NCBI GenBank assembly: GCA_028695015.1
Contig: JAQVJR010000002.1
Span: forward strand, 66,706-116,094
Source: Minisyncoccota bacterium
GTDB taxonomy: Bacteria; Patescibacteriota; Minisyncoccia; UBA6257
Direction of reading: 5' to 3'
DNA length: 49,389 bases
Part shown: piece after piece, positions 38,353 to 49,389 of the stretch
Layout: every line of letters begins with the position of its first letter
How positions within the stretch are numbered: position 1 is the first letter of the stretch
Position numbers and translations under genes: made by a program
The notes under the pieces: generated by a model
Database searches by the model: none
Seen by the model: only the letters and a program-made list of their open reading frames with translations
Told to the model about the DNA's origin: nothing

Positions 38353-39465
38353 TTATTTGCAAGAACATGTCTTGCTTACTGTTGCCTTTTTATATGCAGT
38401 TCCTGATTTACAATCATCTCCGCTTTCATAATAACAAGGACTTTTTGACGTACATGAGTCGGTACTAAAAGACTCTCCACAATTAGCTTTTGCAGCAAGA
38501 AGAGTTAAGCTACAACTTCCTCTCCAAGTCTCAGAACCACTACTGCAACTGGCAAGAGTATAGCACCTCCTTGCATTCCCTTCTTCTGCAGAATATTTAT
38601 CACAATTAGTAGACTTTGTTGTACTACCATTACAATCATAATCCCAAGAACCACAGTTATTTGGAGTTGTGTAATAGCTAGTCTGACCTGGTCTTGCTCG
38701 TGAATCTGAGTCACAACAATCAGTTCCTGATAACTGAGAAGAGGCTTGGCATTTTTTTGTTCCAGAAGAAGGTGCATAGCGATCTCCATCATTATCTACA
38801 TAGCAATAGCCTGAAATACACTCACTTCCTGAAGAGCAGGTTGACCCATTGGCTTTTTTTCTAGTGGTTGTGGTTGTTGCCTTTGTAGTAGTTGTCGTGG
38901 GCTTAGTTGTGGTAGTTGTTGTAGTAGTAGTGGTGGTGGTGGTAGTCGTTGTTGTAGTAGTTATGGTAGTAGAAGGAACTGTGGTTGTAGTGGTTGTAGT
39001 GGTTGTAGTGGTTGTAGTGGTTGTAGTGGTTGTAGTGGTTGTAGGACCTGCATAAGTCGCTATTGCTATTTCTTTAATTTTTATAGGCACTATTAATCCC
39101 GTAATCCCTATATCCACTGTAGCTTCTATTCCTTTATGCACCTGTCCTATAACCGCTTCGGAATAGATTGTAGCACTATTTCCTGTATTTAAAACTACAA
39201 TCCTGACGTCATTGACATCATTAATGCTTAAATAATATTCCTCAGAGAAGTCTTTATTTCTTTCTAATTTAATTAAAGAATCTTGAATTCCTGAAAAAGC
39301 AGCATAGTAAGCTTTTAGGTTCTTTTGATTAGTATCTAAATTTTGAATACCCCAGAAAGTTAAAGTAGCAGTTGATAAGCCAATAATAAAAACAAGAGAA
39401 CCAAGGGAAATTACTGTGATTAATGCAGCAACTCCTTTTGATAAGTATTTTTTTCTAAAAAACAT
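38353..39465 (-). CDS. PilX/PilK-like minor pilin with long Thr stalk and Cys-rich tip
   Basis: KG|VAALITVI (no E5, PilX-like), KAYYAAFSGIQD, a long Thr-rich run, Cys-rich C-terminus with DNDGDRY...DCCD...PG. Confidence 0.75.
   Translation of the reverse strand: MFFRKKYLSKGVAALITVISLGSLVFIIGLSTATLTFWGIQNLDTNQKNLKAYYAAFSGIQDSLIKLERNKDFSEEYYLSINDVNDVRIVVLNTGNSATIYSEAVIGQVHKGIEATVDIGITGLIVPIKIKEIAIATYAGPTTTTTTTTTTTTTTTTTTTTTVPSTTITTTTTTTTTTTTTTTTTTTKPTTTTTKATTTTTRKKANGSTCSSGSECISGYCYVDNDGDRYAPSSGTKKCQASSQLSGTDCCDSDSRARPGQTSYYTTPNNCGSWDYDCNGSTTKSTNCDKYSAEEGNARRCYTLASCSSGSETWRGSCSLTLLAAKANCGESFSTDSCTSKSPCYYESGDDCKSGTAYKKATVSKTCSCK
38981..39043. repeat. Perfect tandem repeat (GTGGTTGTA)x7 encoding poly-Thr
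   Basis: 63 nt of exact 9-mer copies, read directly from the sequence. Confidence 0.95.
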
Positions 39466-47291: not shown

Positions 47292-47678
47292 CTATTCTAT
47301 TTTTATCTCTTGCTTTACTTTATTAACCAACTCTTCTACAGAAAGCCTAGCTTTGACAAAATAGTCAATAATTCCTAAAGCCTTGCCTCTTTCAATATCA
47401 GAAGGTTGACCAAGATTAGAAATTATTATTACAGGTAGTTTTTCTAACAAAGGATCTTGGCGAATGGTTTCTAAAACTTCAAATCCATTTTTTTTAGGTA
47501 AAATCAAATCTAAAAGAATTAAATCTGGTTTAATTCCTTGTTCAGTTAAAAAATGCAAAGCTTCTTCGCCATCTGCAGCTCGAATAACCTTAAAAGATTC
47601 CTTTTCTAATTTTAATCTTAAAACACTACTTAAAAAAGGATCATCTTCAATTAATAAAATCGTTGACTTGTTATTCAT
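47292..47678 (-). CDS. Single-domain response regulator (receiver only)
   Basis: ILLIEDD, PDLILLD (phospho-Asp), P..GFEVL, IIISN, DYFVK. Confidence 0.92.
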   Translation of the reverse strand: MNNKSTILLIEDDPFLSSVLRLKLEKESFKVIRAADGEEALHFLTEQGIKPDLILLDLILPKKNGFEVLETIRQDPLLEKLPVIIISNLGQPSDIERGKALGIIDYFVKARLSVEELVNKVKQEIKIE

Positions 47679-47743
47679 AATAAAAATGGATTAATATTCC
47701 TTTTTTTCAACTCTAGTAAATAGTATAGCAACTCTTTAAAATA

Positions 47744-47776
47744 AAAACAACTTTGTCAAATAAACAAAGTTGTTTT
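47744..47776. terminator. Intrinsic terminator downstream of the 16S gene
   Basis: 13-bp stem AAAACAACTTTGT-caaataa-ACAAAGTTGTTTT. Confidence 0.7.
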
Positions 47777-48408
47777 ATCTATTCAATCCTTTCTGGTTAT
47801 CCCAAGCATGATTAATCTCTTTTTAAAGATGACAAGATTAACATCTCTCTTTGTTAAACAAAGAGACCGACACTTAAAGCTTTGATTTAAAAACCAAAGC
47901 AAATTCTATAAAAGAAAAGTTTCACCACCAGCTTCCGCTAGCAGTGCCTTGTTATGACTTAGCCCCTGTCACCGAACCTACCCTAGTTCCTGTAAACAGG
48001 ATTTTTAGGTATTCCCGGCTTCCTTGACTTGACAGGCGGTGAGTACAGAGTTCGAGAACGTATTCACCGTGGTGTGGCTGACCCACGATTACTAGCGATT
48101 CCAACTTCATGAGGTCGAGTTTCAGACCTCAATCCGGACTGGGAGATTGTTTGATGCGATTAGCTCCGCCTTACGGCTTGGCAACGCATTGTCAATCCCA
48201 TTGTAACATGAGTGTCGCCCAGGGCATCAAAGGGCCATGCTGATTTGACGTCATCCCCTCCTTCCTCCCTCCTCAAAAAGCACTTCTCAATATTTTAAAA
48301 ATGAAATGCTCTTTGAGGAGGGCGGTTTTTTGTGACACATAAAACACAAAACAGGGGTTGCGCTCGTTTCCCCACTGAAGGGAACAACTCGCGTCACGAG
48401 CTGACGGC

Positions 48409-49318
48409 CATATGCTTCCATTATTACTAATGGTATGGACTATACCATCACCCTTGGAAATTAAAATTTCAAAGGGGACCAGCGTTTTATTATTTACTAA
48501 AAATAAATAATAAAATCTTTAATATTTTTTAAAGATTAAGTCTCTACGGGGCACAAACCCTAATTTATATAACTTTACAGAATATTTACTTATATTTTTC
48601 AAAAACATACTTGCCTCTAATCTAGAAATATAAAGAGCATAAGTCCTAGCTTTCTTATATTTATATATCTTGCTGATAGAAAAACCTAATTGCTTCAATA
48701 AATCTAGATCTTTATTTGCTTCTGTCTCTGTGCTATATACAATCCGGCAATCACTTCTAAAGTCCTTGTTTATAGAACCATCTCCATCAAATCTTCCTGC
48801 AAAATAAGAATAAATATTATTTTTTTTCACTACACTTTTTATGTTTTGTCTAGATTTTATAAATAGTCTTAATAAGGGACGACTATTCACATATATATGA
48901 TAAGCAGTATGTCTAGCTTTTTTCGAAACAGAAAAAGTAGTTTTTATTCCTGAAAAATTTTCAGAAATTACTTCTCGCGTATTATTATCTCTATCCATGT
49001 TTTTATCTAACGGATAATACACTACAAGACGCAATCTTTCTTTAGGAAAATAACTTTCAAAAAACTTTTGAGAAAGTTTAATTAAATCAACATCTATATT
49101 ACTAATACCCACACTACTGCTTCTACTATAACCATCAGCACACCATAATCCCAAAATATAAGTCTCAAACTTATTTTTAGGACAGTTATATAAATTAGAG
49201 TTTGTGCTTCCCACGGTATTGCCCATTCTTTATATATTTTAACATAAAAAAAATTAGGGTTCCACCGTTATGAGCTGGTTTTTTCATTCTAAATTACTTT
49301 AGAATGGGTCGACTTTTC
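48409..49318 (-). mobile_element. Group I intron (910 nt) in 16S rRNA between E. coli-equivalent positions 1060/1061
   Basis: P1 GGUU|GA pairs with UCGACC, giving a U-G wobble at the splice site; terminal G at 48409; P3 ACCAGC/GCUGGU; P ACGGUGGAACC; Q GGCAAUACCGUGGGAAG; R GUAGAGACU; S GGUAUAGUCC; P9 CCAUU/AAUGG. Confidence 0.92.
48519..49226 (-). CDS. Intron-encoded double-motif LAGLIDADG homing endonuclease
   Basis: YILGLWCADGY and YFAGRFDGDGS motifs; uninterrupted 235-aa ORF inside the intron. Confidence 0.9.
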   Translation of the reverse strand: MGNTVGSTNSNLYNCPKNKFETYILGLWCADGYSRSSSVGISNIDVDLIKLSQKFFESYFPKERLRLVVYYPLDKNMDRDNNTREVISENFSGIKTTFSVSKKARHTAYHIYVNSRPLLRLFIKSRQNIKSVVKKNNIYSYFAGRFDGDGSINKDFRSDCRIVYSTETEANKDLDLLKQLGFSISKIYKYKKARTYALYISRLEASMFLKNISKYSVKLYKLGFVPRRDLIFKKY

Positions 49319-49389
49319 AACCATGCAGCACCTGTCCTGATGTCCTTGCAGAAGGCTCAACTTTCATTAAGCTTTCATCAGGATTTCAA

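What the first reader, a model, noticed from the sequence alone, without database searches (positions are those of the whole stretch)
47908..47946. 16S 3' tail lacks the anti-Shine-Dalgarno sequence
Seen: helix 45 pairs fully (CACUGCUAGC-GGAA-GCUGGUGGUG), fixing the register, but the tail reads AAACUUUUCUUUU instead of GAUCACCUCCUUU. Known: CCUCC is near-universal and its loss is documented in only a few lineages. Together with the SD-less, short-leader genes this implies a different initiation mode.
Basis: partly seen in the sequence, partly recalled or inferred. Interest (0 to 1): 0.6.

Follow-up and report, generated by a model that had tools for sequence, protein, structure and literature searches.

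The report
16S rRNA lacking anti-Shine-Dalgarno tail
The only 16S ribosomal RNA gene of this tiny uncultured candidate-phyla-radiation (CPR, Parcubacteria/Paceibacteria-type) bacterium really has lost the sequence that normally docks ribosomes onto messenger RNAs, and its genes carry no docking sites, but this loss is already published for its lineage and has turned up many times in this scan.

Summary
Confirmed, but already known. Helix 45 (window 47946-47923, minus strand, GGAA loop) aligns to the bacterial SSU model. The last 13 model positions do not align, and the tail reads AAACUUUUCUUUU. There is no CCUCC before the next gene and no second 16S copy in the 99.8%-complete 0.52-Mb assembly.

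The trait is lineage-wide. No 16S 3' end recovered from the order has CCUCC. Among 188 sampled classmates with a 16S 3' end, 71 keep it, family by family. Tsurumaki et al. 2022 (PMC9297842) reported this for a uL1-lacking Parcubacteria subgroup, and this genome lacks uL1. The scan has found it before on other DNA (344 notes).

Added here:
- Start regions carry no SD signal, while the same pipeline finds 76% in a positive control.
- Four classmates that keep CCUCC are equally SD-free, and Era, which binds the tail, fell below its family cut-off in 300 of 301 classmates. SD-independent initiation therefore probably came before the tail decayed by C-to-U drift.
- Start regions are A/U-rich and unstructured. 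About half the genes sit close behind another gene, and a minority have leaderless-type promoters.
- RNA contigs show the 16S is expressed and its 910-nt LAGLIDADG insertion is removed.
- Unexplained: about 10-17 genes keep conserved canonical SD motifs.

The parts
47923..47946 (-). 16S helix 45: 10-bp stem with a GGAA loop, the KsgA dimethylation site
   Evidence: cmscan alignment to RF00177 positions 1498-1520. Direct reading. A KsgA gene is present in the genome.
47905..47922 (-). 16S 3' tail without CCUCC. It starts AAACUUUUCUUUU. Its 12-mer from the third base aligns without gaps to the canonical ACCUCCUUUCUA, and all five differences are transitions.
   Evidence: Identical in G006 and near-identical in genus g2. 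The mature 3' end itself is not mapped.
47923..48407 (-). 3' exon of the 16S rRNA gene, about E. coli positions 1053-1529
   Evidence: RF00177 matches. Mismatch-free metatranscriptome contigs from two studies cover 47946-48167, and one more covers 48320-48407.
48408..49317 (-). 910-nt insertion in the 16S gene. It carries a 235-aa LAGLIDADG-type ORF (49226-48519) and is absent from the RNA.
   Evidence: An RNA contig joins 49318 to 48407 with no mismatch, and loose ends in a second study match the same joint. Pfam LAGLIDADG_3 scores 28.9 bits against a cut-off of 22.5.
49318..49389 (-). Upstream 16S exon fragment, cut by the contig end. The 5' two thirds of the gene are not in the assembly.
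47804..47904 (-). 3' trailer with two or three hairpins between the tail and the processing stem
   Evidence: Sequence reading. Homologous hairpin-bearing trailers occur in family members. Function unknown.
47781..47803 (-). Probable 3' strand of the long pre-16S processing stem, 119 nt after helix 45
   Evidence: In relatives with a complete gene (L009, L010, L011) the homologous motif pairs with the leader directly upstream of the 16S 5' end, at -53 to -57 kcal/mol. Located here by motif. Inferred only, because the 5' leader is missing from this contig.
47738..47776 (-). Terminator-like hairpin after the rRNA unit, followed by a promoter (-35 at 47759, -10 at 47727) for the response-regulator gene that starts at 47678
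   Evidence: Sequence reading. The same layout is seen in genus g2.

Best explanation
This is the genuine, expressed, single 16S rRNA gene of a CPR (Patescibacteria; Parcubacteria/Paceibacteria-type) bacterium whose lineage has lost the anti-Shine-Dalgarno sequence. Shown: the tail lacks CCUCC, the trait is shared by all sampled relatives in the order and by about 60% of the class, and the genome's start regions contain no SD signal. Inferred order of events: translation initiation in this class became SD-independent first, because classmates that keep CCUCC are equally SD-free. Era, the assembly GTPase that recognises GAUCA-CCUCC, fell below its family cut-off in almost the whole class sample. 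With both constraints gone, the tail drifted by C-to-U transitions in these AT-rich genomes; intermediates such as UCUCC and UUUCC are seen in other families. Inferred mechanism of initiation: ribosomes load on A/U-rich, structure-poor start regions, probably helped by the short bS1 and by IF3. Operon-internal genes, about half of all, probably start by coupling or re-initiation. A minority of promoter-proximal genes are leaderless or have very short leaders.
For: Tail and helix 45. Single copy. Identical or related CCUCC-less tails in nine relatives from the genus, family and order. Class sample: 188 of 301 genomes have the 16S 3' marker and 71 of them have CCTCC at the canonical distance. 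The split follows families (7/7, 11/11 and 3/3 keep it; 0/7, 0/6, 0/6, 0/4 and 0/4 lack it). Graded pyrimidine-only decay in 40 CCUCC-less classmates. Published precedent with the uL1 link: PMC9297842. uL1 is absent here. No SD signal in own genes. Positive control with the same pipeline. Four CCUCC-keeping low-GC classmates are also SD-free. Era passes its cut-off in 1 of 301 classmates and not in this genome. Era's recognition of GAUCA plus CCUCC: PMC10582724. Start regions: A reaches 58% at -3, GC falls to 21%, and the mean 40-nt folding energy is -1.8 against about -3.6 kcal/mol elsewhere. 240 of 441 genes lie less than 40 nt behind a same-strand gene. -10-like hexamers at leaderless spacing occur in 28 of 144 genes against about 12 per control bin. 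Expression: mismatch-free RNA contigs from two studies.
Against: The mature 3' end is not mapped. RNA contigs stop just 5' of helix 45 (47946/47947), so the tail sequence in the ribosome is inferred from DNA only. Gene starts were predicted crudely, as the longest ORF of at least 100 aa. About 10-17 genes carry strong canonical SD motifs at canonical spacing (17 against 10 and 5 in controls at -10 kcal/mol or stronger). Several of these are conserved between genera that lack CCUCC, one of them at only 43% protein identity. A pure 'nothing reads SD' model does not explain that. The order of events rests on four sampled genomes from three families and on no explicit phylogeny.
Confidence: 0.8

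Rival explanations
1. The decayed tail is still a working but degenerate anti-SD. As an all-pyrimidine stretch it pairs through A-U, G-U and one G-C with purine-rich leaders, including the conserved AGGAGG-type motifs of a small gene set.
For: All five differences from the canonical 12-mer are transitions, so G-U wobble can replace G-C. Predicted duplexes of the genome's own tail with seven of the strong SD leaders are -4.4 to -11.3 kcal/mol, up to 12 contiguous pairs. The first ~20 nt of the tail are better conserved between genera g1 and g2 than the hairpin that follows. The orphan SDs are conserved.
Against: Genome-wide there is no energy trough for the genome's own tail upstream of starts. 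Mean energy is weaker at -9 to -18 than in the background, and the share of strong duplexes is at background. The exact complement GAAAAG lies within 15 nt of a start in only 5 genes. C-to-U drift is also what AT mutation pressure alone predicts.
Confidence: 0.12
2. A canonical anti-SD is supplied from elsewhere: an unassembled second 16S copy, an alternative or spliced 3' end, or a separate small RNA.
For: The assembly has 8 contigs, lacks any 23S gene and holds only the 3' third of the 16S, so rRNA loci are incompletely assembled. Conserved canonical SDs suggest that a reader exists.
Against: No relative in the order shows a canonical tail. The only exact 12-mer of the canonical tail in the genome is the antisense of a coding-strand SD that overlaps a Gly-Gly-Asp coding end. 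Other CACCTCCT sites are mostly in-frame GGA-GGT codons read on the opposite strand. RNA contigs show no joint or loose end at the 3' side.
Confidence: 0.04
3. The locus is a pseudogene or an assembly chimera.
For: The gene is cut by a contig end and interrupted by a 910-nt insertion.
Against: Mismatch-free RNA contigs at depths of 29-220 in two studies, with the insertion precisely removed and the universal sequence restored. Synteny with the downstream response regulator is conserved in other genera. Many independent DNA runs hold the stretch. Helices 44 and 45 are intact, and the changes in helix 44 are compensatory.
Confidence: 0.02

Closest known systems
Anti-SD-lacking, uL1-lacking subgroup of Parcubacteria (Tsurumaki, Saito, Tomita, Kanai 2022, RNA 28:1041; PMC9297842)
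   Same: The CCTCCT motif is missing at the 16S 3' end, uL1 is missing, bS1 is short, the 16S carries an insertion, and the genome is tiny. My class sample gives 38% retention; their figure for Parcubacteria is 48%.
   Different: In the passages I searched, the paper reports the rRNA motif only. It says SD helices probably do not form and calls the uL1 link unclear. The mRNA side (SD-free starts, also in CCUCC-keeping relatives), the class-wide lack of Era, the graded C-to-U decay and the orphan SDs were worked out here or in earlier notes of this scan.
Bacteroidia-type SD-independent initiation (Bacteroidetes keep the anti-SD but sequester it; from my own knowledge of Baez et al. 2019 and Jha et al. 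2021, not read here)
   Same: No SD enrichment, A-rich unstructured start regions with a strong A at -3, and bS21 present. The CCUCC-keeping classmates resemble this state.
   Different: Here the anti-SD itself is gone, not hidden.
Mammalian mitochondrial small-subunit rRNA, which lacks the anti-SD, with ERAL1 binding helix 45 (PMC10582724)
   Same: The anti-SD is lost while helix 45 and its dimethyl-adenosine loop are kept, and some mRNAs are leaderless.
   Different: Mitochondria keep an Era homologue; in this class Era fell below its family cut-off in 300 of 301 genomes. Here only a minority of genes look leaderless.
Leaderless-rich bacterial genomes (Actinobacteria, Deinococcus; GeneMarkS-2 'group C'; from my own knowledge)
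   Same: -10 boxes sit 6-8 nt before the start codon in some genes.
   Different: Those lineages keep the anti-SD and use SD on leadered genes. Here the leaderless signal is modest, about 11% of promoter-proximal genes above background.

Membership tests
Anti-SD-lacking Parcubacteria subgroup (Tsurumaki 2022) | 16S 3' end lacks the CCTCCT motif | tested here: met
   Absent at the canonical place and in the 323 nt downstream.
Anti-SD-lacking Parcubacteria subgroup (Tsurumaki 2022) | Ribosomal protein uL1 gene absent | tested here: met
   PF00687 finds nothing in the 99.84%-complete genome, while all 14 control genomes match.
Anti-SD-lacking Parcubacteria subgroup (Tsurumaki 2022) | Belongs to CPR / Parcubacteria | tested here: inconclusive
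   The genome is 0.52 Mb. The best PilB relatives are MAGs labelled Patescibacteria group and Candidatus Jorgensenbacteria. Earlier notes on this genome say Paceibacterota.
Bacterial SSU rRNA (RF00177) | Helices 44-45 and the decoding site match the model | tested here: met
   69.2 and 206.5 bits. Helix 45 and the GGAA loop are intact, and the helix 44 changes are compensatory.
Bacterial SSU rRNA (RF00177) | 3' terminal GAUCACCUCCUUU | tested here: not met
   The alignment ends at model position 1520 of 1533.
Leaderless-dominated genomes | -10 box 6-8 nt before the start codon in a large share of genes | tested here: inconclusive
   28 of 144 genes with a 90-nt or longer upstream gap, against about 12 per control bin. 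A second peak at -28..-23 points to 10-15-nt leaders. Starts were predicted crudely and there are no TSS data.
SD-independent initiation through unstructured A/U-rich start regions | No SD enrichment, with a local minimum of mRNA structure at the start codon | tested here: met

The most novel reading that the evidence does not exclude
A small, conserved set of genes keeps a canonical AGGAGGUGAU-type motif 5-9 nt before the start codon in a family whose ribosomes have no anti-SD. Examples are an exopolysaccharide-type operon at G000:C3:41.7-45 kb, a 177-aa gene at C3:177352-177885 and several lipoprotein genes. One motif is letter-perfect between genera whose proteins are only 43% identical. 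If this reflects selection, something other than the classical anti-SD reads these sites. Candidates are wobble pairing with the all-pyrimidine tail, a protein, or another RNA. That would define a second, specialised initiation or regulatory channel in CPR bacteria.
Probability: 0.3. Interest if true: 0.6.

Novelty: already known. Interest (0 to 1): 0.25.

Why it matters
The SD/anti-SD pairing is the textbook way bacterial ribosomes find start codons. A large branch of the CPR has dispensed with it entirely, which is relevant for gene calling in these MAGs, for heterologous expression, and for understanding minimal ribosomes. For this window the fact itself is not new. Two points from this work are useful. 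First, there is evidence that SD-independence and the absence of Era are class-wide and came before the tail decayed, which turns 'why was the anti-SD lost' into 'why do some relatives still keep it'. Second, it adds another well-documented case of conserved orphan SD motifs.

Tried and rejected
1. The first control genome, G213 (CCUCC-keeping), has 52% GC. Longest-ORF starts are unreliable at that GC, so its result was uninformative. I replaced it with four low-GC classmates and a phage positive control.
2. A histogram of motif-to-ATG spacing made without gene calls was swamped by codon periodicity.
3. A test for avoidance of GGA-GGN codon pairs inside genes showed no avoidance in this genome, in the CCUCC-keeping classmates or in the positive control. 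It therefore says nothing.
4. A replacement SD complementary to the new tail was not found.
5. I first read the conserved element after the 16S as the 5' end of 23S. The real 23S start in relatives is different and lies on other contigs, and Rfam finds no known family there.
6. Co-variation of Era with the anti-SD within the class cannot be tested, because Era is missing almost everywhere.
7. The RF2 frameshift could not serve as an independent reporter of anti-SD function. RF2 here is a 251-aa protein without domain 1, where the frameshift site normally lies.
8. RNA contigs give zero cover of the trailer (47601-47935), and they stop at 47946/47947 in two studies without loose ends.
9. In-window matches to the canonical tail on the plus strand (37612, 38564, 46006): the two I read (37612, 46006) are in-frame Gly-Gly codons of minus-strand genes, and 38564 lies inside the ORF 38353-39465 and was not read.

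Full report
WHAT IS THERE. The window is G000:C5:66706-116094 of a 516,567-bp, 8-contig, 30.7%-GC assembly rated 99.84% complete. Rfam finds one bacterial SSU rRNA gene on the minus strand at the window's right end. The contig end cuts it off. Infernal aligns 48041-47923 to model positions 1388-1520 with posterior probability near 1. The alignment stops at the last base of helix 45, and the final 13 model positions stay unmatched. Read directly, helix 45 is 47946-47937 / GGAA / 47932-47923. All ten pairs form, three of them G-U. The tail starts AAACUUUUCUUUU at 47922.

TESTS OF THE REFUTING CONDITIONS. No CCTCC, or even CTCC, occurs in the 323 nt between helix 45 and the next gene, a response regulator starting at 47678. 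No second SSU match exists in the assembly. The single exact 12-mer of the canonical tail in the genome (C3:42862) is the reverse complement of an SD-like site 5 nt before an ATG. It overlaps the Gly-Gly-Asp end of the preceding gene. Most other matches are in-frame GGA-GGT codons. Fourteen DNA runs hold at least 80% of the words of the stretch that spans the gene's end.

RNA EVIDENCE. Metatranscriptome contigs from two studies match the 16S body without a mismatch, so the gene is expressed. One contig joins 49318 directly to 48407, and loose ends in the second study fit the same joint. The 910-nt insertion, which encodes a 235-aa LAGLIDADG-type protein, is therefore absent from the RNA. The rejoined sequence restores the universal helix-34 motif. 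The contigs of both studies stop at 47946/47947, just 5' of helix 45, with no loose end. A reverse-transcription block at the dimethyl-adenosines made by KsgA, which the genome encodes, could explain this. It is only a weak hint, and the mature 3' end remains unmapped.

THE TRAIT IS LINEAGE-WIDE AND PUBLISHED.
- The same-genus genome has the identical tail. Three further genera of the family and five other families of the order all lack CCUCC after helix 45.
- In an even sample of 301 genomes of the class, 188 carry the conserved 16S 3' marker and 71 of these have CCTCC at the canonical distance. The split follows families cleanly.
- Tsurumaki et al. 2022 reported that the anti-SD motif is detected in only 48% of Parcubacteria, and that the lineages without it overlap the uL1-lacking group (PMC9297842). 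This genome has no uL1 gene.
- The best relatives of a window protein are Patescibacteria and Jorgensenbacteria MAGs.
- This scan has already recorded the same finding in many other genomes.

THE mRNA SIDE.
- I called ORFs of at least 100 aa, took the longest-ORF start (452 genes, 85% ATG) and examined the upstream regions. The enriched words are A/T-only (AATAAA, TAAAAT and similar).
- GGAGG lies within 15 nt of a start in 9 genes. AGGAGG is mostly the in-frame Gly-Gly codon pair.
- SD tetramers in -20..-4 occur in 7.5% of genes, against 8.8% and 7.5% in control windows. The mean duplex energy with a canonical anti-SD is weakest just upstream of the start.
- The same code run on 100 kb of Staphylococcus phage K (30.6% GC) gives 76% against 14%, and an energy trough of -7.8 kcal/mol at -16. 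The method can therefore see SDs.
- No trough appears for the genome's own tail either, and its complement is not enriched.

ORDER OF EVENTS.
- Four low-GC classmates from three families that keep a perfect GGAUCACCUCC tail were run through the same pipeline. They show no SD signal either: 0-2% of genes with GGAGG, and tetramers at or below background.
- Era recognises GAUCA plus CCUCC next to helix 45 (PMC10582724). It is not found over its cut-off in this genome, and it passes the cut-off in only 1 of 301 classmates.
- The two best-known constraints on the tail are therefore relaxed class-wide.
- The tails of 40 CCUCC-less classmates form a graded series that stays almost purely pyrimidine, including UCUCC, UUUCC and CUUCU.
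- This genome's tail aligns without gaps to the canonical 12-mer, with five transitions and no transversion.
- I infer that SD-independent initiation came first and that the tail then decayed by C-to-U drift in AT-rich lineages. This rests on a few genomes and on no tree.

HOW INITIATION PROBABLY WORKS HERE.
- Start regions are A-rich: 45-53% A from -20 to -3, and 58% at -3.
- GC drops from 30% to 21%. Mean folding energy of 40-nt windows rises from about -3.6 to -1.8 kcal/mol exactly at the start codon.
- 240 of 441 genes lie less than 40 nt behind a same-strand gene, and 23 overlap it by 1-8 nt. Coupling or re-initiation can serve these genes.
- Among 144 genes with at least 90 nt of upstream spacer, -10-like hexamers peak at -16..-11 (28 genes) and at -28..-23 (27 genes), against about 12 per other bin. 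Roughly a tenth look leaderless and another tenth short-leadered above background.
- bS21, IF3, KsgA and a short bS1-like protein (288 aa, about three S1 domains) are present.

WHAT DOES NOT FIT. Seventeen genes have a predicted duplex of -10 kcal/mol or stronger with a canonical anti-SD at the canonical place, against 10 and 5 in control windows. The top two are 10-12-nt perfect matches. Several sit in one operon-like block at C3:41.7-45 kb that encodes a GT2 synthase, a GH113 hydrolase and membrane proteins. Their motifs are kept in genus g3 although the DNA is only 70-73% identical. The motif before the 177-aa gene at C3:177352-177885 is letter-perfect in a genus-g3 genome whose protein is 43% identical. 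The genome's own pyrimidine tail could pair with these purine-rich leaders through G-U wobble, at -4.4 to -11.3 kcal/mol. Nothing genome-wide supports such pairing, however. Earlier notes of this scan describe the same orphan SDs in other genomes. I leave this unexplained.

SURROUNDINGS. The 16S gene is solitary. No 23S gene lies within 1.5 kb in any relative of the order. In genus g2 the 23S is on another contig, and none is assembled in G000 or G006. In family members with a complete gene, the leader directly upstream of the 16S 5' end pairs with a trailer segment 105-120 nt after helix 45. The homologous segment here is 47803-47781, and it encloses the tail plus two or three hairpins. A terminator-like hairpin and a promoter for the response regulator follow.

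VERDICT. The phenomenon is already published and has been seen repeatedly in this scan, so interest is low. The residual interest lies in the order-of-events inference and in the conserved orphan SD motifs.

Noticed in passing
window 48408-49317 (minus strand): A 910-nt insertion in the 16S gene, at about E. coli position 1052. It carries a 235-aa LAGLIDADG-type ORF (49226-48519). Metatranscriptome contigs join 49318 to 48407, so it is removed from the rRNA. Rfam's low-confidence alignment of 48408-48523 to model positions 925-1050 is therefore spurious.
   Followed up: yes
window 47781-47904 (minus strand); L009, L010, L011: The pre-16S processing stem closes 105-120 nt after helix 45 instead of a few tens of nucleotides. 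It encloses a trailer with two or three hairpins, and a motif of the GGUCG...GGUGUUGGUC type recurs after the 16S in many families of the class. No Rfam family matches. Whether it stays on the mature rRNA is unknown.
   Followed up: partly
G000:C3:41691-44954, C3:47398-47754, C3:177352-177885, C3:201548-201877 and others: Orphan canonical SD motifs (AGGAGGUGAU type, spacing 5-9 nt) before about 10-17 genes. Many of these genes encode secreted, lipo- or membrane proteins or a GT2/GH113 polysaccharide module. The motifs are conserved across genera that lack the anti-SD.
   Followed up: partly
G000:C3:175438-176145 (minus strand): Release factor 2 is a 251-aa protein that matches only positions 111-346 of the prfB model. 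The SPF and GGQ motifs are present, but domain 1 and the usual frameshift site are missing. The upstream gene ends 22 nt before it.
   Followed up: partly
whole genome G000 and same-genus G006: No 23S rRNA gene is assembled in either genome despite 99.8-100% marker completeness. The 16S is unlinked from the 23S in this family.
   Followed up: partly
window about 48030-47950 (helix 44, minus strand): The decoding-site helix carries two compensatory pair changes relative to the consensus. By E. coli numbering from my own knowledge they are 1404-1497 C-G to U-A and 1409-1491 C-G to A-U. The second pair lies in the aminoglycoside pocket.
   Followed up: no
class sample of 301 genomes: Era passes its family cut-off in only one of 301 genomes of the class, whether or not the 16S keeps the Era-binding GAUCACCUCC. 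KsgA is kept in this genome.
   Followed up: partly
G223:C23 (classmate): One contig carries two 16S 3' markers about 25 kb apart, one followed by the canonical tail and one not. This could be two differing rRNA genes in one genome or a chance match. I did not look.
   Followed up: no
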